Assembly: GCA_039809325.1 (NCBI GenBank)
Contig: JBDHUS010000001.1
Span: 391-64,390, forward strand
Direction of reading: 5' to 3'
Length of the DNA stretch: 64,000 nucleotides
Source of the DNA: Minisyncoccia bacterium
Lineage (GTDB): Bacteria > Patescibacteriota > Minisyncoccia > Phycocordibacterales > UBA5272
Positions 5,851-43,745 of the stretch are shown piece after piece (the stretch's first letter is position 1; each line of letters begins with the position of its first letter). Under the pieces are notes generated by a model. That model was not told where the DNA came from. It saw only the letters and a list, made by a program, of their open reading frames with translations, and ran no database searches. Made by a program: the position numbers and the translations under genes.

Positions 5851-6477
5851 CTATCTAATAGGTAAAACTGGAGCATTTACCTGCACATTTGGATTGATTC
5901 CTATAAAGTCTCCAAAAAATGCAATAATCCCCCATAATGTAACCATTATAAATATAGCAATTAAAGAATACATCATGTTTTGAAGAGCCTCTTTTCTTTT
6001 TCCTGCATCATTCTTACCTTTAATTAAATACATTATTAAGAACCAGAAGAAGAATACTACACCTAATCCTAAAAGGATCGGTGGAAGTAATCTTACAATT
6101 CCTCCAATTCCTCCAATAAGATTACTAAAAAAAGATAAGTCTGCTTGATTTGCTCCCATTTGTCTTTGATAACTACCTTGTGTATATGATGGACCTCCTT
6201 GTGCTCCACCTGTACCATTTGGTTGACACATTGGTTGTCCATTTACATTTACAAGTGTATAACCTTGTTGACATGTTGGAATACCTGTTTGGCCTTGTTG
6301 CCCCGGTTGTCCAGTTGTACTACCACCTCCGACAGGAATACATACTCCACCAGAGATTTGTCCTGGTCCTCCATTTGCAGTAACACAAACTTGCTGTGCA
6401 GAAACACCTGAAAATGAGAATATGAAAGCAAAAGCTATCAATAATACAATAACATTTTTATTAATAAAGTTTTTCAT
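5851..6477 (-). CDS. secreted Gly/Gln/Cys-rich protein with a C-terminal two-helix pilin-like membrane module
   Basis: Signal peptide, then a G/Q-rich region with 4 Cys, then TM1-loop-TM2 (KEALQNMMYSLIAIFIMVTLWGIIAF). This is similar to KEFMMWGLISLFVMVSVWGIIKL in the 7649 gene. Confidence 0.45.
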   Translation of the reverse strand: MKNFINKNVIVLLIAFAFIFSFSGVSAQQVCVTANGGPGQISGGVCIPVGGGSTTGQPGQQGQTGIPTCQQGYTLVNVNGQPMCQPNGTGGAQGGPSYTQGSYQRQMGANQADLSFFSNLIGGIGGIVRLLPPILLGLGVVFFFWFLIMYLIKGKNDAGKRKEALQNMMYSLIAIFIMVTLWGIIAFFGDFIGINPNVQVNAPVLPIR

Positions 6478-7648: not shown

Positions 7649-8680
7649 TTAAGGATTAGGACAATCTTTAACCACTATTCCTGTAAAAGTTGTTTTCTGC
7701 CCTGTTTGTACTACTAAAGCCTCCCATGTTTCTTTACCAACTTCTCCATCTACACCCAATCCATTTACTTTTTGAAAATTTTTAACAAAAGCAGCATCAG
7801 CTTCATCATATGTTGTACTAAAAGTATAATTACTTGGCATACAATTATGCTTTTTTAATAAATTCTCAAGTAAGGTAAAAGCTTTTTTATCTGGTGAAGC
7901 ACCTGCTTCTAATGTAGACTTTGCTCCTATTTTAATAACTGGATATAAGTCTTTATTATCAAATACATTTTCTCTTTTTACTCCTCCAGCATCATTTTGT
8001 ATAGGACTATTTTTAGGTCTACATTGCCCTACTTCACCTTTTTTTAATGAAGCGCCTCCAGGACCTAAACAATATAATCCTGAAACACATTGTGATTTTT
8101 CTCCTTCTTGTACAACACAAGTCTCACCAGTTTTTTTAGTATTAAGAAAATCATCTTCATTACCCAAAACATTTTTTTCAGGTTTTTTCTCACCACTACC
8201 AGTACCCCCTCCACTACCTGTATTTAATGTTGCAAATCTTACAGGTTCAATAACTATTTCATTCCCTTTTATTTGAAGTAGCCCTTGTGCTAATTTTATA
8301 ATTCCCCAAACGGAAACCATAACAAAAAGAGAAATAAGTCCCCACATCATAAATTCTTTTCCTTTTTTTAATTCATTACCATCTTTTCCTTGAGCTCTAT
8401 CGTAAATAAATTTTGCAAGCCCATAAAAAAATATAACAAATGCTGCAGTCATTAAAAGAGTGCTCGCACTAGTTAATACATTATTAGTAATATTGTTTGC
8501 TACTTCTTTAAAGCTTTGACTTGCTGTGTATGCATTATCTTGTGCGAAAACTAAATTTAAATTCAAAAGAAAAATAAAAAGAAAAATAGAAATTGATTTT
8601 ATTTTTATTTTTATATTATTTATTTTCATATTTTTATTTATTAAACTTTGATTTAAAATTATTAAGGTAATATTACACAT
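7649..8680 (-). CDS. secreted protein with a pilin-like two-helix module, a Cys-rich region and a C-terminal peptidoglycan-binding-like (PG_binding_1) motif
   Basis: Signal peptide, then TM1/TM2 (FFYGLAKFIYDRAQGKDG...FMMWGLISLFVMVSVWGIIKL). The C-terminal DEADAAFVKNFQKVNGLGVDGEVGKETWEAL resembles PG_binding_1. Confidence 0.5.
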   Translation of the reverse strand: MCNITLIILNQSLINKNMKINNIKIKIKSISIFLFIFLLNLNLVFAQDNAYTASQSFKEVANNITNNVLTSASTLLMTAAFVIFFYGLAKFIYDRAQGKDGNELKKGKEFMMWGLISLFVMVSVWGIIKLAQGLLQIKGNEIVIEPVRFATLNTGSGGGTGSGEKKPEKNVLGNEDDFLNTKKTGETCVVQEGEKSQCVSGLYCLGPGGASLKKGEVGQCRPKNSPIQNDAGGVKRENVFDNKDLYPVIKIGAKSTLEAGASPDKKAFTLLENLLKKHNCMPSNYTFSTTYDEADAAFVKNFQKVNGLGVDGEVGKETWEALVVQTGQKTTFTGIVVKDCPNP

Positions 8681-13315: not shown

Positions 13316-15802
13316 TTAAAGTATAGCAATACTTGCCACACTATCTTTATCTCTTAATTTCATTATTCTTACTCCTTGTGTTGCCCTGCCTAATGTTGGT
13401 ATTGTTTTTAATTCTGTTTTGATAACTTGTGAATTTTTAGAAACTGCCAATATTTCCGCTTCTTCATTTACTATTACTTTTGCTACTATTAATTTTCCTG
13501 TCTTTTCTGTAATGCTTACTGTCTTTATTCCAGATCCACCTCTTCCTTGAGTTTTATACTCATCTAGCTTTGTCATCTTTCCATATCCGTTTTCTGTAGC
13601 GACTAGTAATTTTGCTTTTTTGGCATCACTTTTTTTAATCACATCACATGCTGCAATATTATCTTTCTTATCTAGTTTCATACCACGCACCCCACCTGCA
13701 GTTCTACCCATTTCGCGAACATCACTTTCTGCAAAACGTATTGATTGCCCTTCTACAGAAGTCATAATAATATCATCCCCAGGCTCTACAAATAACGCCG
13801 ATAGTAATACATCATTACTGTCAAGCTTAATAGCAATAAGTCCACTTCTTCGAACATCTTTAAAACTTTCAGCGCTAGACTTTTTAATAGTTCCGTCTCT
13901 TGTAATCATAGCAAGTGAAAATGTAGAATTTTTAATATCCTTTGGCATTGGAAGTATACTTGTAATTTTTTCATCACTTGAAACTTGAAGATAATTCATA
14001 ATACTCTTTCCACGAGTTGCGCGCCTTCCTTCTGGGATATCATACATTTTAATTTGATAAACTTTTCCTTTATTAGTAAAGAAAAGTAAATCGGAATGGG
14101 TACTTGTAGTTAAAGATATAGTAATAAAATCTTCCTCTTTTGTATTCATATCTACTACACCAACACCCCCTCTTTTTTGTGTCTTAAATTCATCCGGATC
14201 TGTTCTTTTTACATATCCTCCTGCTGTATAAATAAGAACAGCTTCTTTTTCAGCTATTAAATCTTCTGGATTAAATTCTTTTGCTTTGTGAGAGACTATT
14301 TTTGTCCTTCTATCATCACCATATTTTTCTCTTATCTCCAAAAGCTCATCTTTTATAATCTTTAGCATTTTCTTTTCACTTGCTAAAATCTCTTTTAATT
14401 CTTTTATCGCTTCTTGTACTTCTTTAAGTTCATCTTCTATTTTCTTTCTTTCAAGACCAGCAAGTCTTTGAAGCTTCATATCAAGAATAGCTTGAGCTTG
14501 TAGAGGACTAAACTTAAATTGTTTTTGAAGTTCATTATGAGCTTCTTCTACTGATTTTGATTTTCTAATTAATTTAATTATCTCATCAATATGATCTAAT
14601 GCTTTTTTTAATCCAAGCAAAATATGTTCTCTATCTTCTGCTTTTTTTAATTCAAATTCTGTTCTTCTTCTAACTACTACTTTTCTATGTTTTATAAATT
14701 CTTCAAGGGCAGATTTAAGATTAAGAGTCTGTGGTACTCCATCTACAAGAGAAACTAAATTGACATGAAAAGTATCTTCGAGCTGTGTATGTTTATATAA
14801 ATAATTTAAAATCTTTTGCGGCTCTATACCATTTTTTAGATCTATCACTACACGGATATCTTTTGTAGATTCATCTCTTAATCCTTTTATTCCTTCTATC
14901 TTTTTCTCACGCACCAAGTCTGCTATCTTTTCTATCATATTTGCTTTTACAACTCTGTATGGTATTGAAGTAATAACTATTTGATAGCTACCATTTTTTA
15001 ATTCTACTATTTCAGCTTCACCACGAGTTACTATTCCTCCACGACCTGTAGCATAAGCATGCATAATATCATTCTTACCATAAATAACTCCACCTGTTGG
15101 AAAGTCAGGACCTTTTACTATTTCGCAAAGATCTTCTGTAGTGGCGCTATTATTATCTATAAGATAAGTCGTAGCATCTATTAGCTCAGTTAAATTATGA
15201 GGTGGTATATTTGTTGCCATACCTACTGCAATACCAAGAGTCCCATTTAAAAGAAGATTTGGTACAGCGGTTGGAAGAACTGATGGTTCTTTTTTAGTAC
15301 CATCAAAGTTAGGCTTCATATCTATTGTGTCCTTTTCTATATCACGAAGCATTTCAGAAGATATTTTAGACATTTTTGCTTCTGTATATCTGTACGCTGC
15401 GGCTCCGTCTCCATCAATAGAGCCAAAGTTACCTTGTCCCCAAATTAATGGATAACGAGTTTTAAAATCTTGCGCCAAATTTACCATCGCATCATATACA
15501 GAAGAGTCTCCATGCGGATGATATGATCCAAGTACATCTCCTACCACTGTTGCAGATTTTTTAAAGCGAGCTCCAGCTGAAAGCCCGTTTTGATGCATGG
15601 AGTAAAGTATTCTACGATGTACCGGCTTTAATCCATCTCTAGCATCTGGCAAAGCGCGATCAGTAATCACACTCATCGCATAGTTGATATAGCTTTTCTT
15701 CATCTCTTCCACTATATCCATGTCTACAATTTTGTCGTGCTTCAAATTTTCAGAGTTTTCAAGATTAGAAGATTCTTCGATTTTTGTATTATTTTTTACC
15801 AT
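13316..15802 (-). CDS. gyrA: DNA gyrase subunit A
   Basis: 828 aa with the motif [29 protein letters not shown]. Confidence 0.95.
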
Positions 15803-15814
15803 AGTTTTTATAAT

Positions 15815-15870
15815 TTAATAAAAGAAAAAATGCTATATTTATATATAAATTATAGCATTTTTAAAATAGA
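15815..15870 (-). terminator. hairpin terminator downstream of the tailspike-like gene (AATGCTATA/TATAGCATT inverted repeat)
   Basis: Perfect 9-bp inverted repeat flanked by T/A runs between 15886 and the gyrA start. Confidence 0.4.
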
Positions 15871-15885
15871 TTTGAAAGTTAAAAA

Positions 15886-18800
15886 TTAGCTTGCAGGAGC
15901 GGGATCATCCGGATTTACCAAAGGTATTGTAGAGGAAGAATTATCAGTATTTTCTGGATCTGTAGAACTAGCAACAGTTGTGTCAAGATTATCTGCTGAC
16001 TCTCCTCCGCCTATTGATTCAGGTTCTTCTTCTGCGCCGCTCCCTCCGGTCGCGCCGCTTCCACCCGCATCCACACCACCTCCACCAATAGTATTAATTT
16101 TATTAATAGCATTTTCCAAAGTGTCACCATCAGTACAAAATCTTGATCCGTCAGATTTTTTGAAACAAAGTTTATTTTCTATTTCTACTCTATTAAAGTA
16201 TCCAACAACCGCAGTTATCTTTGCTACAACAAAATCATGAATAATAGAAATTTTATTATTAACTTTTTCTAAAATAATATTTAAGACAGATTTATTATAA
16301 TTATTATTTTCATTAATAATTAAATTAAGTGTGTTTGTTGCGTTTGTATTATCTATCATATCTGGAGTACTAGAACCTGTCAGAGTTGTGAATTGATCTT
16401 TCAAAGCATTCACAATAGTTGCTATGATTGGCCTATCTTGAAGAGATAAATATCCATTAGGTGATGTTGATACTGCTTCTGGTATTGCATTTTGTATGTT
16501 TTGAGCAGAGAAACCAGTATAGAAGTTATTAGTATCTAGTCCGGATGTTTCATTCCATTTGTATGAGATTGGGTTTATTTTTAATAGATCTAGTATAGAT
16601 CTATTGTATGGAGTTATGTTTTCTTTTAGTCTTTCGTCTGATGATACTGATAGGTTACCATTTGCGTCAGTGGTGAGTGTACCGGCTCCGAAACTAGAGA
16701 ATCTTATTGTACCTGATGCATGTAATGTAGCTGTTGGTGATGTTGTTCCTAGTCCTACTCCAATGTTACCTCGTAGGAATGTTTTAGTGATGGAGGTGTT
16801 ACCGAGGGTGACGGAGTTGGAGCCGTTTCCTGTGGCATTGTATCCTATTACTATTTCATTAGAACCACCATCTGTAAGAGCTTTAGTTAAAGAACCTAGA
16901 AGTACGGAAGTACTCATAAAAGTTAGCTTTACAGACCCTCCTGATATAAATTTTCCTGCGTCAGCACCAATTACAACATTATAATCTCCTTTTGTTACAT
17001 TAAGCATAGAGTTTATTCCTATAGAGCTATTCCCGTACCCAGCATCAAGGGAATATAAAGATTGTACTCCTATAGCCACGCTAGCGCTAGAACTTGTAGA
17101 ATTTCTTAAAGAAGATAGACCTATAGCAACATTACTTCCTCCATTTATATTATTAAAAAGTGTAGCTACGCCTACAGCAACATTCAAAGAACCCGTTCTA
17201 TTCTCTTTTAAAGACCCCTGTCCCAATGCCACATTATTATATCCGGTAGTATTTGAACTTAATGTATTATCTCCTACAGCTGTGTTGTAGGAACTTTCAT
17301 AATTGTATGTTGCCATTTTACCCATATTAAAATTACCTGAATTCTTACCTAAAAATATATTACTTCCTACAGTAGTCACTGCCCCATTATCTCCATAATT
17401 AAAATTATGTAAAAATGGGACTCCGTCTGAATATATTACTCCTATCACTTCTGATGAAGTAGAATTTTGTGTTGATGGTAGATATATATTTGATTCTGAT
17501 TTTAAAGAAGAAAATGTTCCAATATTTGGCTTAGCTATACCTATTGCCATTGGTGAAGAGAATATTGAAGAAAGATTACTTGCTAATAATACATTCGGTA
17601 TATTATTTACTATATTTTCTGTTTGAAAGTTTTCTTTTATGAATTTAGCTACTTGTTCTGCTACTACTTTATATCCATAGTTATTTAAATGCAGCCCATC
17701 GTAAGATAAAGAACTGGGTATTACATCATTATCAATATCTATTAAATCTTGCGCTGTTGGTATAATATTTGCATCTTGTAATCCTCGCTCTATTAAATAT
17801 GTACGGATATCAAAATAATTATTTGGATAAGTTGACGCAAGATCATTATTTAATTGTATAATGGTATTATAATTAACTTCTCCTTTTCTTTCTAAATTTT
17901 TATTTGCATTTATTACTGATAAAATTAAATACTTTTGATTTCCATTCAGATTTGCAACCATAGCAGCTATATCTGCTTCTGCTTGTGTTGGATTATTAAA
18001 ATTATTCCTTCCTGTCCAGATAACTGATATACCATTATTTAAATTTCTATTATCAATAATAAAAGTAGATGAAGTTGTAGAGACAATTAATCCGTTTACA
18101 TCTCTTGAAAATAAAATTGATCCAGAACTATATTTTAATGTACCATATATTCCAGCAAGTGTTCCTTTTATACCGTTAGCAGGACTTTGAGCTGTTACTG
18201 GCTCATATCCTATAGGAAAAGTAACAGTTACTGTCGCACCTGCTGTTGCTGGTATTTCTCCACCAACTATTGTTACAGTTGGTTGGTATGCTCCTTGACG
18301 GACAGCAATTTGAGTTGAGCCTTGACCACCTACTCCATTATTATAAACAAGAATATTCAATATTCTAGATAAAACATTTGGATAATTATTGCCAACCGTA
18401 GAGCCACCTCCCGATGTCAAACTATCCCCCCAAGCCGTCACAAAACTACTAGGATTTACTGTGCTTACTACCTCACTATTATCAGCAAAATTTAACCCTA
18501 ATGAAGCTAAAGTTGGTGTAGGATTATTTACTATTGTAGTGCTCTGTGTTGGGACAAATTGATATTGTGTAGAATTTGGAGTAAATATAGACGCCCAATT
18601 TGTATTAGTATTTGTTGTATTTATTGGTATATCTAAATTATTTGCTGTAGTAAATGATTTTTTATCTATTTCTGAAAGCTTTGCATTTAAAGTATTTATT
18701 TGTTTTTGTAAAGCATTTATTTCTTGAGAATAATCTTTATTATCAGTATTTTTATCTACTATTTCATTTGTTTTATTTATTTTTTCTGAACTCTTTGTAT

Positions 18801-19030
18801 CTGTATTATTTTCTACCCCTTCTGTATTTAGATTATTATTTTGATTATTAAGATTATCTATATTATTAACTGATGAAATAGATACTCCTAATACTTCCCC
18901 CCCCCCCCGCAGTATTTTGAGTATTTGTAGTATTTACTCCTTCTTTATTAGTATTATCTTTGTTTATTATAGTGAATACGGTAGTTGATACTATTGCTAA
19001 TCCTGCTATTGTGAGAAGTATGTTTTTCAT
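15886..19030 (-). CDS. large secreted tailspike-like protein: signal peptide, SGNH/GDSL esterase, Asn-rich repeats and a C-terminal intramolecular-chaperone (peptidase S74) domain. The reference sequence is frameshifted at a poly-G tract
   Basis: - The body (15886..18933) is one open frame containing the GDSLT block (AWGDSLTSGGG), DGLHLN, many N-x-G repeats and SSDERLKENI.
- The ATG at 19030 encodes a signal peptide (MKNILLTIAGLAIVSTTVF) in a frame that is +1 relative to the body.
- A G12 run (coding strand) lies between them; G11 or G14 would fuse the two. Confidence 0.6.
18897..18908 (-). repeat. homopolymeric C12 (+ strand) / G12 (coding strand) tract
   Basis: Read directly from the sequence. 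It is the only G/C run of 8 or more in a 30% GC window. Confidence 0.95.
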
Positions 19031-19070
19031 AGTTTTTTTATTTATATGAGTTTATTTTAACATGATATTT

Positions 19071-19120
19071 TAGAGAGAAGTGGAGAGAGTGGGTGGGGTG
19101 GGGAAAAGTGGAGGGAAAAA
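19071..19120 (+). promoter_or_regulatory. polypurine / G-run tract (GGGTGGGGTGGGG...GGAGGG) in a divergent intergenic region
   Basis: Seen directly in the sequence. It lies between the ATG at 19030 (-) and the ATG at 19139 (+). Confidence 0.5.
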
Positions 19121-19138
19121 GTACTATATTATTAAAAA

Positions 19139-19633
19139 ATGTTAAAATTAAATATAATGAAAACTAGTATATATATTGATGGAAATAACCTATACCGCTC
19201 TGCAAAAGAACTTGATTTTGAAATTGATTATAAAAAGTTCCGTGTCTGGATTACTCAAAAATACAATACTAAAAATATATTTTTATTTATAGGATTTTTA
19301 GAAGATAGAAAAGATTTTTATAAATATTTAGAAGATTGTGGATTTAATTTAATATTTAAGGAAGCAGTATTACACGAAGGAAATATCAAAGGTAATTGTG
19401 ATGCGGAATTAGTATTAAAATCAGTTGATGATTTTCATCTTAAAAATTTTGATAAATTTATCTTAATTTCTAACGATGGTGACTTTGGATGTTTGGTTGA
19501 ATTTTTAATAAAAAGAGATAGCTTTGATACTATCATATCCCCTGATAGAAAAAAGTGTTCTATTTTACTTAGAAACAAAACTAATAAGATTTTGTATTTA
19601 AATGAAGTTTATAAAAAATTCTCTAAAAAATAG
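19139..19633 (+). CDS. NYN-domain (LabA-like) putative ribonuclease
   Basis: Motifs IYIDGNNLY, GNCDAEL and ISNDGDFGCL match the NYN/PIN-like nuclease pattern. Confidence 0.6.
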   Translation: MLKLNIMKTSIYIDGNNLYRSAKELDFEIDYKKFRVWITQKYNTKNIFLFIGFLEDRKDFYKYLEDCGFNLIFKEAVLHEGNIKGNCDAELVLKSVDDFHLKNFDKFILISNDGDFGCLVEFLIKRDSFDTIISPDRKKCSILLRNKTNKILYLNEVYKKFSKK

Positions 19634-19655
19634 ATAATTATATGAAAAGAAAAAA

Positions 19656-19752: not shown

Positions 19753-20085
19753 CTATCTATCACTACTTGTAGAAGTTGTTGCGTTATTAAAGACTCCTGA
19801 TAAAGAAGACTTTATGCTAGAAAATTGATTTCCTGTTTCTTTAAAAAAATTAATAAAAGAAGTCATTGGTGATTCCAGTTTTTCTTCTTCATTTTTATTT
19901 TCAACTTTTATTTCTTCTACTACAGCTTCTTTGTTGTGACCAATATTTAATAATCTATCTTTAAAAATAAAAAATAAAAATATTAAAACAATAGCAGATA
20001 ATATTATAGCAATAATGAGAGCAGATCTATGTTTAGTCTTTTCATCACTTGCTCTTAATTTATTAAGATAATTTATTATAGACAT
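19753..20085 (-). CDS. hypothetical single-pass membrane protein
   Basis: 110 aa with one TM helix (LIIAIILSAIVLIFLFFIF). Confidence 0.3.
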   Translation of the reverse strand: MSIINYLNKLRASDEKTKHRSALIIAIILSAIVLIFLFFIFKDRLLNIGHNKEAVVEEIKVENKNEEEKLESPMTSFINFFKETGNQFSSIKSSLSGVFNNATTSTSSDR

Positions 20086-39463: not shown

Positions 39464-40048
39464 TTATATCATGCTATGATTTAGTACAAAAACAATATGC
39501 TCCTTGACTTCTTTTTCATTTAAGAGAAAGTGCGTAAAAAAATCTTTCATTTCAAAATTTTTGTATTCTATAATATCTTTCACCCCTATAACTTTTGCAT
39601 CAGCATATCCTGTGTCTACAAGCACCAAATAATAAATCAATATTTTTAACTTAAGCGGGTCCATCTGGGTAAGACCATTTGAACAAATCGTTAAAAATTT
39701 TAACTTTTCAAAAAGCTTTTTATATGTTTTCTTTTCCTCTAAGAATCTACTTATTGTTTCAGAGATTAATGATTTTATTTCAGAAAAATATTGTGAAGTG
39801 CCAAGATTTTCTTTTATCTCTTCTACCCCAGTGAGTCTCCAAATATCTTTTCCTTTTACAAGAGTCATATTTAAAAACTCATTTTTTTTAGCATTCATGC
39901 GGAGCTTGGCATTTATTTTTCTTATACTTCTTGCAAGTACAAAAATAATACCAAAATCTTTGGTCCAAACTTTATAAACAAGATCATTTTCGTCTTGTGC
40001 ATATTCTTTCAAAATAAAAGCTTCAGTTGTGTATTTTTCAATGGACAT
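39464..40048 (-). CDS. possible short RecO-like protein
   Basis: The N-terminal OB-fold-like pattern EAFILKEYAQDENDLVYKVWTKDFGIIFVLARSIRK resembles the RecO N-domain. Confidence 0.35.
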   Translation of the reverse strand: MSIEKYTTEAFILKEYAQDENDLVYKVWTKDFGIIFVLARSIRKINAKLRMNAKKNEFLNMTLVKGKDIWRLTGVEEIKENLGTSQYFSEIKSLISETISRFLEEKKTYKKLFEKLKFLTICSNGLTQMDPLKLKILIYYLVLVDTGYADAKVIGVKDIIEYKNFEMKDFFTHFLLNEKEVKEHIVFVLNHSMI

Positions 40049-43000
40049 TAATTTTCCAAGCTAATTTTTTCCTCATTTCCTTCAATAAATTTAATTATAG
40101 AAAGCTTACAATCTTTTTTTAACTCTTCTTCAAGAGATTTGATAAAATCAATCCTTTCTTTACCAGATTCTACAAATAGTACAGCAATATCGCTTGGAGT
40201 AAGATTTTTATCTTTTCTTAAATCTTTTATTTTCCTTGTTAGCTCACGATAATCACCTTCCTTTTTAAGTTCTTGTGTTATTTCTAAATCAAGAATTACA
40301 TTTTGATTTTCAAAATATTCTTTAGTATTGTCTAACAATGCCTCTTTTACATTTATTTCCTCTTTCAAAATATCAAGATATTTTTTATCTATTTTTTTAT
40401 TTATAAATAATTTTGAAAGTGGCTGACGAACTGGAATATTATTTTTTTGTCTTTGCATCAAAGCTTCTGTTACAAGAGCTCTCACCTCATCCATTTCTTC
40501 TATAACTTTTTCATCTATAACAAATATATTCTTTGGCCAAGCTTCTAAATGTGCAGATTCTTTTTTCTCTAAAGTGTATTTATTTATAGACAAATAAATT
40601 CTCTCTGCCAAAAATGGCATAAATGGAGCAATTATCTTTGAGAATTCATTGAGTATTTTGTAGAGTGTAAATTCGGCATTCATTTTCTCTTCCTCGCCAG
40701 ACTCTCCTTTTAACCTTTCACGAGATCTTCTTAGCCACCAAGTAGAAAGGTCGTCGATGAACTTTTCAAGTGGACGAGTCGCTTGATCAAGCTTATACTC
40801 ATTCATATTTTTTGTTACTATCTCTAAAACTTCGGCAACTCTTGTGAAAATCCAAATATCCATTGGATTTTCTATTTTTCTTTCTTTTGGAGGAAGTTCA
40901 ATATTTAACATTTCATAAAAACTCAAAACATTTTCTAATTTTGCCACAACTTTTTTATAAGTCTCTTCTACGTTTGCATCTGAAAATGGAATATTTTCTG
41001 CACACATTGCTGGCGACGAAAGCAGAGTCTGACGAAAAGCGTCAGCACCATATTTTTCAACTAGCACCATAGGATCAGTATAATTCCTTTTGCTCTTACT
41101 CATTTTTTCTCCATCAGCTGCCGTTAAAAGACCATTTACTATTACATTTTTATATGGAGATTTTTCAAAAATACCTACAGAAATATTTAAAAGAGAATAA
41201 AACCAACCTCTAGTTTGATCAAGGCCTTCTGCTATAAAATCAGCTGGAAAATTTTTATTAAAAATATTCTGATTTTCAAATGGATAATGAATTTGTGCCA
41301 TCGGCATAGAACCTGACTCGAACCAACAATCAAATACATCTGGGATTCTCTCCAATTCTTCTTTATTCTCTCCTAATAATTTAATATTATCTATATAAGG
41401 TTTATGAAGATTTATTTTTCCTGTTTCATCTCTTGGCACTAATTTTAAATCTAATTTTCTTATTTCTGCATTTTTAGGATAGAGTTTCGTTTCTTCTGTC
41501 AATTCATCTTCTATAAGTTTTTCTTTCGTTATAAGCTCTCCTGCAAAAGCTATCATTCTCATAGGGCCTCCATGAGTTACTATTAAAATATTTTTTCCTT
41601 CATATCTATTTTCTAATTCATATATTCCTTTCATCACTCTTTTTATCACATCATTATGTGATTCTCCTCCGCCGAGTTTTAGATCTAAATTTAAATAATT
41701 AATACCGTAATCTTTTTCTATTTCTGTATTAGGTTTTTTGCTATAAGTTCCTAGATTGATTTCTGTAAAGTGCTCATCTATTATTACTTCTTTTTCTTCT
41801 GCCATTATTTTAGCGGTTTCAAAAGCTCTAAGATACGGAGAAGATATTATTATGTCAAAATCTATACCTATTTCTTCTCTTGCTTTTTTAACCTGCTCTA
41901 TACCATTTTCTGTAAGATGATTATCTGGATCCATGTCTGTTTCCTCTATACCTAATACATTGTGTTTTGCCTCACCATGCCTCATTATATAATATTGGTT
42001 TTTTGGTTTATTAATATTTTCTTTAGCTAATTCTTCCAAAGAAGATACTATTTTTATCTCATTTCCATTTTTATTTTTCCATATAGGTATAGGAGCCCCC
42101 CAATATCTACTTCTTGATACTGCCCAATCACGTGCCCCTTCAAGCCATTTTCCAAATCTCCCATCACGAATATTTTCTGGTATCCAATTTACTTTAGAAT
42201 TCTCTTTTAATAATTCAGATTTTATTTCTGGAACTTTTATAAACCAAGAACTAGTAGCATAATTAAGAAGAGGTGTCTCACATCTCCAACATGTAGGATA
42301 AGCATGTATTAATTTTTCTTTTGCAAAAATAAGCCCTCTACTTGCTAAACTTTTTATAATTAAAATATCAGCTCCTTGATTATCGTCTTTTGTCTTAACT
42401 TTCACTCGAGGAAAATCTATGACTTCTTTTGTAAACTCTCCATTCATTTCTACATGTCTTATAACTGGTAAAGATTTTTCTTTAGATAAATTCAAATCAT
42501 CTTCTCCAAAAGCTGGAGCAATATGTACTATACCTGTCCCTGTATCCAAAGAGACAAATTCACCATTTACTATGATATAAATATTCTCTTTATTTTCTAA
42601 TTTACTATTTATGAAATAATCAAAAACTGGTTTATACTTTTTTCCAACTAATTTTTCTCCAAAAAAAGTTTCAATTATTTCTACATTCAAATTTACTTTT
42701 TTAAATACTTCTTCTGCTCTTTCTTTTGCTAGAATATAAATCTCTCCTGATTCAGCTTTAGCTTTTATATATTCAAATTTTTCATTTATGGCAAGTGCAA
42801 CATTCCCTGGAAGAGTCCACGGCGTAGTAGTCCAAGCTAAAAGAAAAGTATTTGGCTCATTTTCAAGCTCAAATTTTGCGGTTACAGAAATATCTGTTAA
42901 ATCTTTATATCCTTGCGCCACTTCAGATTGAGCAAGTGTTGTCTCACATCTTGGACAAATATGCATACTTTTATATCCTTCAAATACAAGGCCTTTTTTG

Positions 43001-43500
43001 TAAAGCTCAGAAAAAGCCCACCAGACTGACTCTGTATAATTTGGATCCATTGTGCTGTATGGATTTTCCATATCTATCCATCTACCAAATCTTGGTATTG
43101 TTTCTTTCCATTCTTTTTCATATGCAAATACACTTTCTTCTGCTTTTTTATTAAAATTATTTATTCCAAATCCTTCTATTTCTTTTTTAGAATTTAATTT
43201 AAATTTCTTTTCAATCAAATTTTCAATCGGAAGCCCATGTGTATCCCAACCCCATACACGACGAACATATTTACCATTCATGGTTTGAAATCTTGGTATT
43301 GCGTCTTTTATTGTTCCAGCTAAAAGATGGCCATGATGAGGAAGACCTGTTGCAAATGGAGGCCCGTCATAAAAAGTAAAACTTTCTGGATTTTCTACCT
43401 CACCGGGATTCTTAAGAGATTTTTCGAATATTTTATTCTCTTTCCAAAATTTTAATATCTCTAATTCTTTTTCGTTTATACTTTTGTTTTTATTATTCAT
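40048..43500 (-). CDS. ileS: isoleucine--tRNA ligase with an inserted histidine-phosphatase (PGM-like, RHG) domain; start moved to MNNKNK
   Basis: HIGH (PHHGHLLAG), WDTHGLPIE, WTTTPWTLP and KMSKS (GEKMSKSKRN). A roughly 185-aa insert (aa 520-705) carries YYIMRHGEAKHN and LIVTHGGPMR. Confidence 0.9.
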   Translation of the reverse strand: MNNKNKSINEKELEILKFWKENKIFEKSLKNPGEVENPESFTFYDGPPFATGLPHHGHLLAGTIKDAIPRFQTMNGKYVRRVWGWDTHGLPIENLIEKKFKLNSKKEIEGFGINNFNKKAEESVFAYEKEWKETIPRFGRWIDMENPYSTMDPNYTESVWWAFSELYKKGLVFEGYKSMHICPRCETTLAQSEVAQGYKDLTDISVTAKFELENEPNTFLLAWTTTPWTLPGNVALAINEKFEYIKAKAESGEIYILAKERAEEVFKKVNLNVEIIETFFGEKLVGKKYKPVFDYFINSKLENKENIYIIVNGEFVSLDTGTGIVHIAPAFGEDDLNLSKEKSLPVIRHVEMNGEFTKEVIDFPRVKVKTKDDNQGADILIIKSLASRGLIFAKEKLIHAYPTCWRCETPLLNYATSSWFIKVPEIKSELLKENSKVNWIPENIRDGRFGKWLEGARDWAVSRSRYWGAPIPIWKNKNGNEIKIVSSLEELAKENINKPKNQYYIMRHGEAKHNVLGIEETDMDPDNHLTENGIEQVKKAREEIGIDFDIIISSPYLRAFETAKIMAEEKEVIIDEHFTEINLGTYSKKPNTEIEKDYGINYLNLDLKLGGGESHNDVIKRVMKGIYELENRYEGKNILIVTHGGPMRMIAFAGELITKEKLIEDELTEETKLYPKNAEIRKLDLKLVPRDETGKINLHKPYIDNIKLLGENKEELERIPDVFDCWFESGSMPMAQIHYPFENQNIFNKNFPADFIAEGLDQTRGWFYSLLNISVGIFEKSPYKNVIVNGLLTAADGEKMSKSKRNYTDPMVLVEKYGADAFRQTLLSSPAMCAENIPFSDANVEETYKKVVAKLENVLSFYEMLNIELPPKERKIENPMDIWIFTRVAEVLEIVTKNMNEYKLDQATRPLEKFIDDLSTWWLRRSRERLKGESGEEEKMNAEFTLYKILNEFSKIIAPFMPFLAERIYLSINKYTLEKKESAHLEAWPKNIFVIDEKVIEEMDEVRALVTEALMQRQKNNIPVRQPLSKLFINKKIDKKYLDILKEEINVKEALLDNTKEYFENQNVILDLEITQELKKEGDYRELTRKIKDLRKDKNLTPSDIAVLFVESGKERIDFIKSLEEELKKDCKLSIIKFIEGNEEKISLEN

Positions 43501-43504
43501 AATT

Positions 43505-43745
43505 TTGATTGAAAATTTGTTAATAAATTCTTTAAATTTTTCTAAAATAAAAATCACCCAAAACTCTTTCAAGTTCAAGGGCGATTTTGTCGCGGTACCA
43601 CCTTGATTCCAGAAAATATTTCTGCTTCATTTATGAGGGTCTATTTGGAGCGACACCTCCGGCGTCGCCCCTTTCTTCCTCAAGCTCTGGAGTGATTAGT
43701 TCCGTCTCTGCTTTATACTTTTATTATATCAAAAAATATAAAAAT
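43505..43745 (-). promoter_or_regulatory. T-box leader upstream of ileS
   Basis: - The minus strand reads AATCAAGGTGGTACCGCGACAAAATCGCCCTTG, matching the T-box consensus AAUNAGGGUGGNACCGCG with its antiterminator.
- The competing terminator is AAAATCGCCC...GGGTGATTTT followed by a U-run.
- An AUC (Ile) triplet followed by A lies upstream (CUAAUCACU). Confidence 0.55.

What the first reader, a model, noticed from the sequence alone, without database searches (positions are those of the whole stretch)
15886..18441. Cellular secreted protein with phage tailspike architecture (SGNH esterase, Asn-rich beta-helix-like repeats, S74 intramolecular chaperone)
- The ORF contains a GDSL/SGNH hydrolase block set (AWGDSLTSGGG; DGLHLNNYG, a DxxH catalytic pair).
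- About 350 aa of N-x-G / Asn-Ser-Thr-rich repeats follow, typical of right-handed beta-helices.
- Near the C-terminus is SSDERLKENITPYNRSILDLLKINPISYKWNE, the Ser-Lys dyad region of peptidase S74. This is the auto-cleaving intramolecular chaperone of phage tail spikes and fibres (e.g. K1F endosialidase, T5 pb1).
- The protein then ends with a Gly/Ser/Glu-rich tail.
- Such modules are characteristic of phage receptor-binding proteins. Here it is fused to a signal peptide with no other phage structural genes nearby.
- That suggests a domesticated tailspike used as a cell-surface esterase or adhesin. This would be plausible for an episymbiont that must engage a host cell surface. Its expression appears gated by the poly-G switch.
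Basis: partly seen in the sequence, partly recalled or inferred. Interest (0 to 1): 0.7.

Follow-up and report, generated by a model that had tools for sequence, protein, structure and literature searches.

The report
Switchable phage-fibre-like surface protein in CPR
A tiny candidate-phyla-radiation bacterium carries, among its housekeeping genes, a gene for a surface fibre built from phage tail-fibre parts (a sugar-deacetylating enzyme, an adhesin-like beta-roll and a self-cleaving folding domain), and a run of 10-12 G bases that varies in length between near-identical genomes puts the gene in or out of frame.

Summary
The true gene runs 15886-19030 on the minus strand. An ATG at 19030 encodes a hydrophobic signal anchor, and a G12 run (18897-18908) puts it out of frame with the 851-aa ORF. 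G11 restores a 1047-aa protein, and that allele exists in two other assemblies.

Domains, in order:
- signal anchor, polar linker and coiled coil;
- an SGNH esterase with all four catalytic blocks and an inserted beta-barrel, whose closest solved relative is a phage tailspike esterase domain;
- six exact 17-residue repeats that model as a YadA-like beta-roll, not a pectate-lyase-type helix;
- a peptidase S74 chaperone domain (Ser797/Lys802);
- a conserved Cys hairpin and an acidic tail.

All 64 kb of context is cellular (gyrA, ftsH, smpB, tmRNA, aminoacyl-tRNA synthetases). Homologues lie in cellular contexts in several Patescibacteria lineages.

A 31%-identical Yonathbacteria homologue has the same design. 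Its tract is G10 (in frame) or G11 (out of frame) in assemblies that are otherwise 99.96-99.98% identical.

Most of the gene is 100% identical in nucleotides between genomes whose flanks are about 83% identical, and it carries mosaic patches.

The closest precedent is the Bdellovibrio MAT fibres. I rate it a new variant of a known kind. Function and switching are inferred, not shown.

The parts
15886..19030 (-). Whole gene. It gives a 1047-aa protein if the G run is 11 long. In this window the run is G12, so the gene is split into a 54-aa N-terminal ORF (18866-19030) and the 851-aa ORF plus 153 start-less upstream codons (15886-18900).
   Evidence: The in-frame orthologues are P0001 (1042 aa) and P0147 (1047 aa).
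18962..19030 (-). N-terminal signal anchor, MKNILLTIAGLAIVSTTVFTIIN. It has a hydrophobic stretch of about 19 residues and no lipobox. No clear signal-peptidase site was seen by inspection.
   Evidence: This is the highest Kyte-Doolittle 19-residue window of the protein (2.35, residues 4-22). Homologues have classical cleavable signal peptides.
18897..18908 (-). Homopolymeric G12 tract (C12 on the + strand) coding Gly42-44. G11 or G14 puts the gene in frame; G12 puts it out of frame.
   Evidence: It is the only G/C run of 7 or more in 64 kb. The tract is G11 in L001 and L005. GGG is only 9.8% of Gly codons in the window's genes.
18655..18744 (-). Probable short coiled-coil stalk (DNKDYSQEINALQKQINTLNAKLSEIDKKS). 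It follows an Asn/Thr/Lys-rich polar linker at 18745-18897.
   Evidence: Read from the sequence. The region lies inside the PHROG 11419 tail-fibre match, aa 24-466. The coiled coil is inferred and was not modelled.
17620..18462 (-). SGNH/GDSL esterase domain (aa 190-470). Block I is at 18409-18441 (Ser203), block II at 18310-18348, block III at 17992-18024 (Asn342), and block V at 17674-17712 (Asp444/His447).
18016..18279 (-). Beta-barrel subdomain (aa 251-338) inserted between SGNH blocks II and III. It is a candidate carbohydrate-binding lobe.
   Evidence: The AF2 model shows strands E109-196 at pLDDT above 90. The region aligns with the tail spike protein 9sij. The epsilon15 petal esterase domain has an inserted beta-barrel at the same place. 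The top Foldseek hit is Ape1, 4k3u.
16789..17301 (-). Beta-roll (aa 577-747) built of 17-residue repeats. Six repeats are exact in register and others are degenerate. It resembles a YadA-like adhesin head.
   Evidence: The model has pLDDT 83-98 here. Foldseek PDB matches are BoaA 3s6l, CbpF 9gh4 and YadA 1p9h at probability 0.5-1.0 but with weak E-values. The repeat register is shown. tblastn matches the SPO1 gp2.52 tail spike and a Pelagibacter phage tail fibre.
16189..16641 (-). Peptidase S74 intramolecular chaperone domain (aa 797-947). The predicted nucleophile Ser797 is at 16639-16641 and Lys802 at 16624-16626. Predicted self-cleavage at Ser797 would release aa 797-1047.
   Evidence: Pfam PF13884 scores above its cut-off. 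Ser and Lys are invariant in the 8-sequence alignment A1, and Ser, Asp and Lys are at least 90% conserved in the 90-sequence alignment A2. Foldseek matches the MyRF ICA domain 7dc3 at probability 1.0, and more weakly endoNF 3gw6 and GA-1 3gud.
16075..16188 (-). Conserved post-chaperone module: a beta-hairpin with two invariant cysteines (Cys955, Cys965) followed by a helix.
   Evidence: L911, C912, C922 and L928 are invariant in open-frame numbering. The model shows strands and a helix at pLDDT about 87.
15889..16074 (-). Disordered Gly/Ser/Asp/Glu/Pro-rich tail (aa 986-1047). The stop codon is at 15886-15888.
15900..19650 (.). Cassette (fibre gene plus the divergent NYN-domain gene at 19139-19633 on the + strand). 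It is 96-100% identical in nucleotides to L001/L005, whose flanks are only 76-91% identical. Mosaic patches lie at 17570-18018 (L001 differs) and 16820-17418 (L005 differs).

Best explanation
This is a chromosomal gene of a low-GC Patescibacteria (CPR) bacterium. It encodes an exported, probably homotrimeric surface fibre assembled from the same modules as phage receptor-binding proteins.

Inferred mechanism:
1. The N-terminal hydrophobic segment targets the chain to Sec and, in this member, probably stays as a membrane anchor.
2. The C-terminal S74 chaperone domain nucleates trimerisation and folding of the preceding beta-roll.
3. The chaperone then cuts itself off at Ser797, using Lys802 as the base. 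This releases residues 797-1047.
4. The mature fibre has a coiled-coil stalk, three SGNH carbohydrate O-acetyl-esterase domains each with a sugar-binding beta-barrel insert, and a distal YadA-like adhesive beta-roll.
5. By analogy with phage deacetylating tailspikes and Bdellovibrio MAT fibres, it would bind and de-O-acetylate a polysaccharide on another cell, most plausibly the host bacterium of this presumed episymbiont.

Expression is set by a hypermutable G tract placed between the export signal and the rest of the protein. Slipped-strand gain or loss of one G turns the gene ON (G11) or OFF (G12, the state in this window).

The gene also behaves as an exchangeable cassette with module-level mosaicism.

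Shown here: the domain architecture, the catalytic motifs, the cellular context, the tract-length polymorphism and the mosaic identity pattern.

Inferred: trimer formation, autocleavage, esterase substrate, surface anchoring, reversible switching and a role in host recognition.
For: Architecture:
- Pfam S74 is above its cut-off.
- The PHROG tail-fibre family scores 5e-59.
- The SGNH domain hits a solved phage tail spike esterase at E=1.7e-13. That protein is probably epsilon15 gp20, whose petal domain was shown experimentally to deacetylate O-antigen.
- The AF2 models and fold matches agree: SGNH/Ape1, YadA-like heads and the MyRF/endoNF ICA domain.
- 109 viral proteins share the beta-roll plus S74 unit at E<=1e-3.
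- The catalytic Ser/Gly/Asn/Asp-His and Ser/Lys residues are invariant in the 8-sequence family alignment.

Cellular gene:
- gyrA, ftsH, smpB, tmRNA, infC, rplT, aminoacyl-tRNA synthetases and T4SS_pilin proteins surround it.
- Homologues lie in cellular contexts in Kaiserbacteria and Yonathbacteria, and in an Elulimicrobiales relative that shares the gyrA neighbourhood.

Switch:
- The window has G12 and is out of frame. L001 and L005 have G11 and are in frame, and this is the only indel within the 100%-identical stretch.
- A 31%-identical Yonathbacteria homologue has a tract at the end of its signal peptide. It is G10 and in frame (1197 aa) in L074. It is G11 and out of frame in L009 and L073, and G8TGG (also out of frame) in L004. 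The loci are otherwise 99.92-99.98% identical, and the tract is the only gap.
- A third member, L085, has a G8 run in its signal-peptide coding region.
- The tract sits at different residue positions in the three signal sequences, which suggests independent origins.
- GGG is a rare Gly codon here, and this is the only G/C run of 7 or more in 64 kb.
- There is no start codon in the 153 codons upstream of 18441, so the OFF state yields no usable product.

Precedent: Bdellovibrio MAT fibres are signal-peptide-bearing, S74-terminated, phage-like trimeric adhesins used on prey.
Against: - No read-level data were available. Each tract length is an assembly consensus, and homopolymers are error-prone.
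- Only two lineages show length differences.
- The four Yonathbacteria loci are near-identical (99.92-99.98%) and may share an environment or even reads, which I could not check. Their independence is therefore limited.
- Both monomer models leave the N-terminal 190 residues and residues 470-576 at low confidence. No trimer was modelled.
- Pfam GDSL is below its gathering score.
- The fold matches to YadA heads have weak E-values (3e-3 to 0.9), although probabilities are high for the better ones.
- Most homologues have cleavable signal peptides. This leaves open how the mature fibre would stay on the cell.
- The chaperone is not C-terminal as it is in phage proteins. About 100 further residues follow it, with unknown function.
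- An episymbiotic lifestyle is assumed from the phylum and was not shown for this organism.
- The 100%-identical cassette could partly reflect a chimeric metagenome assembly.
Confidence: 0.6

Rival explanations
1. The G-tract differences are sequencing or assembly errors or fixed neutral indels. The gene is either constitutively intact or simply broken, and there is no phase switch.
For: Homopolymers of 10-12 G are hard to sequence and assemble. Each locus is one consensus. The window-lineage contig L070 ends about 170 nt before the tract. L004 shows a G-to-T difference inside the tract, which could be an error.
Against: - Both ON and OFF lengths recur in separate assemblies: G11 twice in the L001/L005 lineage, and G11 in L009 and L073 against G10 in L074.
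- The tract is the only indel in 7.5-9.7 kb of 99.96-99.98% identity.
- Three family members at about 31% identity and different GC contents place a G8-G12 run in the signal-sequence region at non-homologous residue positions.
- GGG is a rare codon here.
Confidence: 0.15
2. It is a decaying pseudogene: a remnant of a phage receptor-binding protein left by an old prophage and inactivated by a frameshift.
For: The gene is out of frame in this window. All of its modules are phage-like.
Against: - There is only a single 1-nt frame defect, and it lies exactly in a homopolymer.
- There are no internal stops over 1004 codons.
- Intact alleles exist that are 100% identical over most of the gene.
- All catalytic residues are conserved.
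- The protein has an export signal, which phage fibres lack.
- No other prophage remnants or integrase were found among the ORFs scanned.
- The family is widespread in cellular CPR contigs of up to 0.7 Mb.
Confidence: 0.08
3. It is the receptor-binding protein of a mobile element, phage or phage-like particle (for example a tailocin) whose other genes lie elsewhere. In that case it would be cargo rather than a cell-surface protein of the bacterium.
For: - The cassette is 100% identical in nucleotides between genomes whose flanks are about 83% identical, with mosaic patches.
- The closest non-orthologous relative, P0028, sits next to a resolvase/recombinase, a weak Phage_rep_O hit and ArdC.
- The SGNH unit occurs on 41 IMG/VR viral contigs.
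Against: - The N-terminal signal anchor or signal peptides in the family argue for Sec export, not cytoplasmic virion assembly.
- No virion, integrase or conjugation genes lie next to it here.
- The position near gyrA is shared by the window, L001/L005 and, one gene over, L002.
- IMG/VR holds no close relative; the best match is 51% identity over the SGNH domain only.
Confidence: 0.1
4. It is a self-directed cell-wall enzyme: an Ape-like peptidoglycan O-acetylesterase that maintains the bacterium's own wall. The fibre parts would serve only as a scaffold.
For: The top Foldseek PDB hit of the SGNH model is the Neisseria peptidoglycan O-acetylesterase Ape1 (4k3u), which also carries an inserted beta domain.
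Against: - The sequence-level nearest solved relative is a phage tail spike esterase, not Ape1.
- The match to Ape1 is 12% identity with TM 0.35.
- An ON/OFF switch, an adhesin-like beta-roll, an S74 chaperone and rapid cassette exchange are atypical for a housekeeping wall enzyme.
Confidence: 0.07

Closest known systems
Bdellovibrio bacteriovorus MAT (mosaic adhesive trimer) fibres, S74 subgroup, e.g. Bd3182 (Caulton et al. 2024, PMC10769870)
   Same: Both are encoded by a cell rather than a phage and carry an export signal. Both are about 1000 aa, phage-tail-fibre-like and modular or chimeric. Both carry an S74 domain with an SDxxxK motif; self-cleavage was shown for Bd3182 at S782. The MAT fibres are used by a bacterium that lives on other bacteria.
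   Different: [quoted passage not shown] Here that region is a polar linker plus a coiled coil.
- This protein carries an internal SGNH esterase and a YadA-like beta-roll.
- Here S74 is followed by a Cys hairpin and an acidic tail.
- Here expression is gated by a poly-G tract.
- The organism is a CPR bacterium. No CPR names were found in the MAT paper's supplement.
- Direct homology to MAT sequences was not tested.
Phage tailspikes and tail fibres with SGNH deacetylase domains: Salmonella phage epsilon15 gp20 petal domain (bioRxiv 10.64898/2026.07.31.742079; probably PDB 9sij/9sim) and E. coli phage G7C gp63.1 (Prokhorov 2017, as cited in that preprint)
   Same: The SGNH fold carries a beta-barrel inserted after block II, the Ser and His catalytic residues are present, and the domain is part of a trimeric receptor-binding protein. 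Sequence homology is E=1.7e-13 over 250 residues including the insert. In the phage protein the substrate is O-acetylated surface polysaccharide.
   Different: The phage proteins have no export signal, attach to a virion, and combine the esterase with a right-handed beta-helix (epsilon15). Here the esterase precedes the fibre and chaperone part, and the gene is chromosomal.
Peptidase S74 intramolecular chaperone domains: K1F endosialidase (3gw6), T5 pb1, GA-1 (3gud), MyRF ICA (7dc3)
   Same: The Pfam match is above its cut-off, the Ser-x4-Lys dyad is present, and the fold matches (7dc3 probability 1.0, TMt 0.60). The domain sits directly after a beta-structured fibre segment.
   Different: It is not at the extreme C-terminus. 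About 100 additional conserved and disordered residues follow, and these would leave with the chaperone. Cleavage was not tested.
YadA-like heads of trimeric autotransporter adhesins (YadA 1p9h, BoaA 3s6l, CbpF 9gh4)
   Same: The repetitive xVAIGxxA-type units model as a beta-roll that Foldseek matches to these heads. In those proteins the head is the adhesive part.
   Different: The repeat is 17 residues long. From memory, YadA repeats are about 14-15 residues. There is no Pfam Hep_Hag or YadA anchor hit and no C-terminal outer-membrane beta-barrel. The organism is presumably monoderm-like. Trimerisation here would be driven by S74, not by an autotransporter anchor.
Homopolymeric-tract contingency loci: Campylobacter poly-G genes (PMC8355987) and, from memory, the Neisseria pilC G tract in the signal-peptide coding region
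   Same: A G tract of 8-12 sits in the 5' coding region of a surface or adhesin gene in a genome otherwise poor in such runs. Changes of one G toggle the frame, and the tract lies in or just after the export signal.
   Different: I found no report of this in Patescibacteria in the paper library. Reversibility and switching rates are unknown here.

Membership tests
Peptidase S74 / intramolecular chaperone auto-processing domain (PF13884) | Profile match above the curated threshold | tested here: met
   E=1.2e-11, 45.1 bits against a cut-off of 22, aa 797-853, profile positions 1-57 of 58.
Peptidase S74 / intramolecular chaperone auto-processing domain (PF13884) | Catalytic Ser-Lys dyad in an SDxxxK motif | tested here: met
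   S797-D-E-R-L-K802. Ser and Lys are invariant in the 8-sequence alignment, and Ser, Asp and Lys are at least 90% conserved in the 90-sequence alignment.
Peptidase S74 / intramolecular chaperone auto-processing domain (PF13884) | ICA/ICD fold | tested here: met
   Foldseek matches MyRF ICA 7dc3 at probability 1.0 and TMt 0.56-0.60. EndoNF 3gw6 and GA-1 3gud match more weakly. Model pLDDT is 88-96 in this region.
Peptidase S74 / intramolecular chaperone auto-processing domain (PF13884) | Trimerisation-dependent self-cleavage that releases the C-terminal domain | not testable with these tools
   This needs expression of aa 470-1047 with and without S797A. No multimer prediction tool was available.
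SGNH/GDSL hydrolase superfamily | [quoted passage not shown] | tested here: met
   Ser203, Gly232/235, Asn342 and Asp444/His447 are invariant in the family alignment.
SGNH/GDSL hydrolase superfamily | Profile match above the Pfam gathering score | tested here: not met
   Lipase_GDSL_2 scores 24.1 bits against 32.9 and covers only aa 200-255. The inserted domain splits the match. Several homologues do carry precomputed PF13472.
SGNH/GDSL hydrolase superfamily | Flavodoxin-like alpha/beta fold, and homology to a characterised member | tested here: met
   The AF2 model has pLDDT 85.9. Foldseek matches 4k3u, 4rsh and TesA (1u8u, 5tic) at probability 1.0. phmmer to the tail spike esterase 9sij gives E=1.7e-13.
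SGNH/GDSL hydrolase superfamily | Esterase activity and substrate | not testable with these tools
   A carbohydrate O-acetyl substrate is inferred only from the nearest relatives.
   No Pfam hit at E<=1. The PDB fold matches of the repeat region are YadA-like beta-rolls. Some other family members do carry PF12708 or PF13229.
Trimeric autotransporter adhesins (YadA family) | YadA-like head repeats | tested here: inconclusive
   Fold matches reach probability 0.5-1.0, but E-values are 3e-3 to 0.9. The repeat period is 17 residues. There is no Hep_Hag hit.
Trimeric autotransporter adhesins (YadA family) | C-terminal YadA-type beta-barrel membrane anchor | tested here: not met
   No such Pfam hit. 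The C-terminus is S74 plus a Cys hairpin plus a disordered tail.
Bdellovibrio MAT fibre family | Export signal plus a long phage-like fibre ending in S74 (SDxxxK) or an adhesive tip | tested here: met
   the family definition is.
Bdellovibrio MAT fibre family | Conserved beta-rich domain of about 130 aa immediately after the signal peptide | not tested
   No MAT sequence was available for comparison. Here aa 24-190 are a polar linker, a coiled coil and low-confidence segments, so membership is doubtful.
Simple-sequence-repeat contingency (phase-variable) locus | Long homopolymer in the 5' coding region whose length sets the reading frame | tested here: met
   G12 lies at 18897-18908 between the signal anchor and the body of the protein. 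G11 gives a 1047-aa ORF.
Simple-sequence-repeat contingency (phase-variable) locus | Tract-length polymorphism among otherwise near-identical sequences | tested here: met
   G12 against G11 within a 100%-identical stretch. G10 against G11 in loci 99.96-99.98% identical, with the tract as the only gap.
Simple-sequence-repeat contingency (phase-variable) locus | Within-population heterogeneity and reversible high-frequency switching | not testable with these tools
   This needs read-level data or culture.
Prophage structural module | Neighbouring capsid, tail, baseplate, terminase or integrase genes | tested here: not met
   30 flanking and large ORFs across the 64 kb were scanned, and all matches are cellular. 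Only the target gene itself was scanned against PHROGs.

The most novel reading that the evidence does not exclude
Patescibacteria use a large, rapidly recombining repertoire of phage-receptor-binding-protein-like, S74-matured surface fibres as their host-recognition and host-surface-remodelling organelles. Individual fibres are phase-variable through poly-G tracts in their export signals and are swapped between species as cassettes. Host range of these episymbionts would then be set and diversified in the same way as phage host range.
Probability: 0.3. Interest if true: 0.8.

Novelty: new variant of a known kind. Interest (0 to 1): 0.6.

Why it matters
How ultrasmall CPR bacteria find and hold on to their host cells is largely unknown; so far type IV pili are the main known factor.

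This gene family offers concrete, testable candidates. They are fibres with a recognisable enzyme (a sugar deacetylase), an adhesin-like head and a self-processing maturation step, all of which can be assayed in vitro.

The poly-G tract looks like a phase switch. I found no report of homopolymer phase variation in this phylum in the paper library. If real, the tract gives a simple genomic marker, tract length in reads, for following ON and OFF subpopulations in metagenomes.

The 100%-identical cassette in genomes that differ by about 17% elsewhere, together with module-sized mosaic patches, suggests that these genes evolve like phage host-range determinants.

If the switch is only a sequencing artefact, what remains is an ordinary member of an already annotated 'tail fiber domain-containing protein' family.

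Tried and rejected
- **NCBIfam scan of the protein:** no family at E<=0.01.
- **Look-up of the exact 54-aa OFF-state peptide in public assemblies:** not on record.
- **Look-up of the identical GyrA:** found one more contig of the same strain, L070, but by my arithmetic it ends about 170 nt before the G tract, so it gives no tract length.
- **IMG/VR scan for a phage copy of the gene:** only SGNH-domain matches at 51% identity or less, so no vector was found.
- **Literature searches** linking S74, tail-fibre-domain proteins or homopolymer phase variation with Patescibacteria or Saccharibacteria: nothing relevant.
- **Promoter and terminator scan of 15700-19300:** no more sites than in shuffled sequence, and no terminator.
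- **Is the poly-G general in the family?** No. L003 (Kaiserbacteria), L006, L012 and L153-159 have ordinary in-frame signal peptides or no tract. In L151 an N-masked stretch prevents a frame check.
- **Programmed frameshifting:** a -1 ribosomal frameshift cannot rescue G12, which needs +1 or -2. Transcriptional slippage could make the OFF state leaky, but that cannot be tested here.
- **UGA recoding as a cause of the split ORF:** rejected. The stops after the short ORF are TAA TAA, and real genes contain no in-frame TGA.
- **Right-handed beta-helix for the repeat region:** rejected.


Full report
**1. What is in the sequence**

The minus strand carries an 851-aa ORF at 15886..18441. Its GTG start is only the first start-type codon after a stop.

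- The same frame stays open for 153 more codons, up to 18900, with no ATG, GTG or TTG.
- Upstream, in another frame, an ATG at 19030 opens a 54-aa ORF. It begins MKNILLTIAGLAIVSTTVFTIIN and runs into a run of twelve G (window 18897-18908, C12 on the + strand).
- Removing one G fuses the two frames into a 1047-aa protein.
- That exact fusion exists elsewhere. P0001 (1042 aa, Logan DRR438479, locus L001) and P0147 (1047 aa, NCBI MAG contig CAZIHL010000014.1, locus L005) are 96-97% identical and have G11.
- The public gene call for the window's own 65-kb contig is the 851-aa fragment, P0148.

So the reported ORF is real, but it is the larger part of a gene spanning 15886-19030 that is out of frame in this sequence.

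**2. Domain anatomy** (numbering of the repaired 1047-aa protein; coordinates verified)

- **aa 1-23:** a hydrophobic signal anchor. It is the highest hydropathy window of the protein.
- **aa 42-44:** the glycines coded by the G tract.
- **aa 45-190:** an Asn/Thr/Lys-rich linker with a probable coiled coil at 96-125. PHROG 11419 'tail fiber protein' matches aa 24-466 at 5e-59.
- **aa 190-470:** an SGNH esterase.
  - Ser203 (AWGDS), Gly232/235, Asn342 (GRN) and Asp444/His447 (DGLH) are invariant in the 8-sequence family alignment.
  - Pfam Lipase_GDSL_2 is below its cut-off (24 vs 32.9 bits), because a beta-barrel of about 90 residues (aa 251-338) is inserted between blocks II and III.
  - phmmer against PDB gives E=1.7e-13 to 'Tail spike protein' 9sij/9sim, and the alignment includes the insert.
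  - Chain lengths and description fit the Salmonella phage epsilon15 gp20 petal domain. That domain is an SGNH esterase with an inserted six-stranded barrel, shown by NMR and by S787A/H1038A mutants to deacetylate O-antigen galactose. I could not confirm the PDB codes in the text.
  - The AF2 model (pLDDT 85.9) has the SGNH fold. Foldseek's best PDB matches are the peptidoglycan O-acetylesterase Ape1, a GDSL lipolytic protein and TesA.
- **aa 470-796:** rich in Asn, Ser, Thr and Gly (50% combined).
  - Residues 583-701 are six units of exactly 17 residues (VA[IVL]Gxx[SA]L...), followed by degenerate units.
  - The model is confident here (pLDDT 83-98).
  - It matches YadA-like heads of trimeric autotransporter adhesins (BoaA, CbpF, YadA). 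Probabilities reach 0.99-1.0 for the better hits, but E-values are weak.
  - No pectate-lyase-type profile matches.
- **aa 797-853:** Pfam Peptidase_S74, E=1.2e-11 and above its cut-off. The match starts at the Ser of SDERLK.
  - Ser797 and Lys802 are invariant in A1, and Ser, Asp and Lys are at least 90% conserved across the 90 homologues of A2.
  - The fold matches the MyRF ICA domain (probability 1.0), and more weakly the K1F and GA-1 chaperones.
- **After the helical part of the chaperone (to about aa 947):** a conserved beta-hairpin with two invariant cysteines (Cys955, Cys965) and a helix, then a disordered Gly/Ser/Asp/Glu/Pro tail (aa 986-1047).
- **Viral relatives of the beta-roll plus S74 unit:** 109 predicted viral structures at E<=1e-3. 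tblastn also hits SPO1-type tail spikes and a Pelagibacter phage tail fibre.

**3. Context and organism**

The window is about 29% GC. The neighbours are, on one side, gyrA (83 nt downstream), a methyltransferase, a solute-binding protein, T4SS_pilin-type proteins and ProRS. On the other side lie a divergent NYN-domain gene, a small membrane protein, a Lactamase_B_3 protein, ftsH, smpB, a DEAD helicase, tmRNA, infC and rplT. Further out are IleRS, ArgRS, MetRS, thyA and tatD. No capsid, tail, terminase or integrase gene was found.

- The orthologue-bearing MAG is labelled 'uncultured Candidatus Saccharibacteria'. A relative that shares the neighbourhood (L002/L007) is labelled Candidatus Elulimicrobiales, in the Patescibacteria group.
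- Family members with SGNH plus S74 lie among ribosomal, RNR, BipA, MetK and XseA genes in Kaiserbacteria and Yonathbacteria contigs. Further matches are labelled Nomurabacteria, Paceibacterota and Zambryskiibacteriota.
- The C-terminal half alone has more than 1276 homologues. Several are on contigs of 0.3-0.7 Mb. Sources label some 'tail fiber domain-containing protein' or assign them to Parcubacteria, Kaiserbacteria, Paceibacterota or Patescibacteria MAGs. Different heads are attached (pectate lyase 3, beta-helix, SASA esterase, laminin-G-like, Ig-like, and one with a pilin N-methylation motif).

This is therefore a cellular gene family of Patescibacteria, not a stray prophage gene.

**4. 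The G tract**

- In the window it is the only G/C run of 7 or more in 64 kb. GGG makes up only 9.8% of Gly codons in the window's genes.
- *Lineage A:* G12 (window, OFF) against G11 (L001 and L005, ON). The indel is the only difference inside a stretch that is otherwise 100% identical.
- *Lineage B:* a Yonathbacteria homologue at 31% identity in a 47% GC genome.
  - Its signal peptide is MNPRRVIFVLTLSLILGGG..., followed by a G tract.
  - The tract is G11 in L009 and L073 (OFF), G8TGG in L004 (OFF) and G10 in L074 (ON, 1197 aa).
  - The loci are 99.92-99.98% identical, and the tract is the only gap.
- *Lineage C:* L085 (41% GC) has G8 within MNPYKYFLLVTVIILMGGVNSVFA, in frame, and a second G8 about 150 nt upstream.
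- The tracts sit at different residue positions in the three export signals, which points to independent origins rather than inheritance.
- Other members have ordinary signal peptides and no tract.

This is the pattern expected of slipped-strand contingency loci. It is not proof: no reads were available, the four lineage-B loci are near-identical and their independence could not be checked, and homopolymers are error-prone.

**5. Cassette behaviour**

A three-way nucleotide comparison gives the following.

- The window is 100% identical to L001/L005 over 19368-18169.
- Over 16818-15919 all three are identical.
- The flanking gyrA, ftsH and Lactamase_B_3 genes are 76-91% identical.
- L001 alone diverges (76-93%) at 18018-17570, the C-terminal lobe of the esterase.
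- L005 alone diverges (83-87%) at 17418-16820, the beta-roll.

This indicates recent transfer of a segment of about 3.7 kb (fibre gene plus NYN gene) between species-level-diverged genomes, together with module-sized recombination. A chimeric metagenome assembly cannot be excluded. The nearest non-orthologous relative, P0028, lies beside resolvase, ArdC and weak Phage_rep_O genes. IMG/VR has no close copy.

**6. Mechanism proposed**

The chain would be exported by Sec. Trimerisation would start from the C-terminal chaperone, which then removes itself and the tail at Ser797. The mature fibre would be anchored by its N-terminus, or held by it where the signal peptide is cleaved. It would present three deacetylase domains and a distal adhesive beta-roll to a foreign polysaccharide. 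ON/OFF switching would occur by slippage in the G tract.

The architecture, motifs, context and polymorphism are shown here. Everything about activity, assembly, location and biological role is inference from characterised relatives.

**7. Comparison with known systems and verdict**

The concept of a cell-encoded, exported, S74-matured, phage-like adhesive fibre was established for Bdellovibrio MAT proteins. Deacetylating SGNH domains are established in phage tailspikes. Poly-G contingency genes are classical in Campylobacter (listing) and, from memory, Neisseria pilC.

New here:
- the combination of these elements;
- its occurrence in Patescibacteria, for which I found no literature;
- the internal esterase;
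- the extension after the chaperone;
- the recurrent tract in the export signal;
- the cassette exchange.

I rate it a new variant of a known kind, with interest 0.6.

Noticed in passing
whole window (42 ORFs of at least 150 aa on the minus strand, plus the + strand genes): No real gene ends in TGA (34 checked: 30 TAA, 4 TAG). No real gene contains an in-frame TGA, although TGA is frequent out of frame. UGA seems to be avoided both as a stop and as a sense codon.
   Followed up: partly
window 40048-43578 (-): The 1176-aa isoleucyl/class-I tRNA synthetase carries a histidine phosphatase (His_Phos_1) domain inserted at aa 530-677 (E=4.7e-32). This is an unusual insertion.
   Followed up: no
window 19085-19130 (intergenic, between the NYN gene and the fibre gene): A strongly strand-biased G-rich/C-rich stretch (minus strand CCCTCCACTTTTCCCCACCCCACCCACTCTCTCC) sits in a 29% GC genome. 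The + strand reads as several G3-4 runs just upstream of the NYN start codon.
   Followed up: no
window 15900-19650 compared with L001/L005: The divergent NYN-domain gene (19139-19633, +) travels with the fibre gene inside the 96-100% identical cassette. The next gene out, a small membrane protein at 19753-20085, is only 71-91% identical.
   Followed up: partly
L085 123-130 and 274-281: This family member has two G8 runs. One is in the signal-peptide coding region. The other is about 150 nt upstream in a TTATTG-G8-TGATATACT context, which could be a promoter spacer.
   Followed up: no
L022 8108-8116: A G9 run inside SGNH block III (VVVWGGG|INS) splits a homologous gene into two frames in a 58% GC MAG.
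   Followed up: no
L153-L159 (P0034 locus): In at least seven assemblies the contig ends 134-157 nt upstream of this S74 fibre gene. Something just upstream repeatedly breaks assembly. No homopolymer is visible in the retained sequence.
   Followed up: partly
P0139: One homologue combines a prepilin-type N-terminal methylation motif (PF07963) with the S74 fibre. This hints that some family members may be mounted on pili.
   Followed up: no
L006 (NZ_LJYG01000090.1, labelled Bradyrhizobium manausense): This locus holds a 1286-aa full-architecture homologue (48% identity in the best segment, matching query residues 130-834) with a signal peptide. The locus is 55.7% GC, which from memory is low for Bradyrhizobium. 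It may be a contaminant contig or a horizontal acquisition.
   Followed up: no
window 5851-6477 and 7649-8680 (-): Two T4SS_pilin-domain proteins are present. The match at 5851-6477 is below the Pfam cut-off (22.5 vs 26.6 bits), and the protein at 7649-8680 also has a peptidoglycan-binding domain. A syntenic relative, L002, carries similar genes.
   Followed up: no
family alignment, N-termini (L003, L006, L010, L012, L085, L151): Many homologues share a short motif right after the signal peptide, PG(Q/A)TL(N/D)PxCxPxDxxC. It may be a small disulfide-bonded anchoring module. The window protein lacks it.
   Followed up: no
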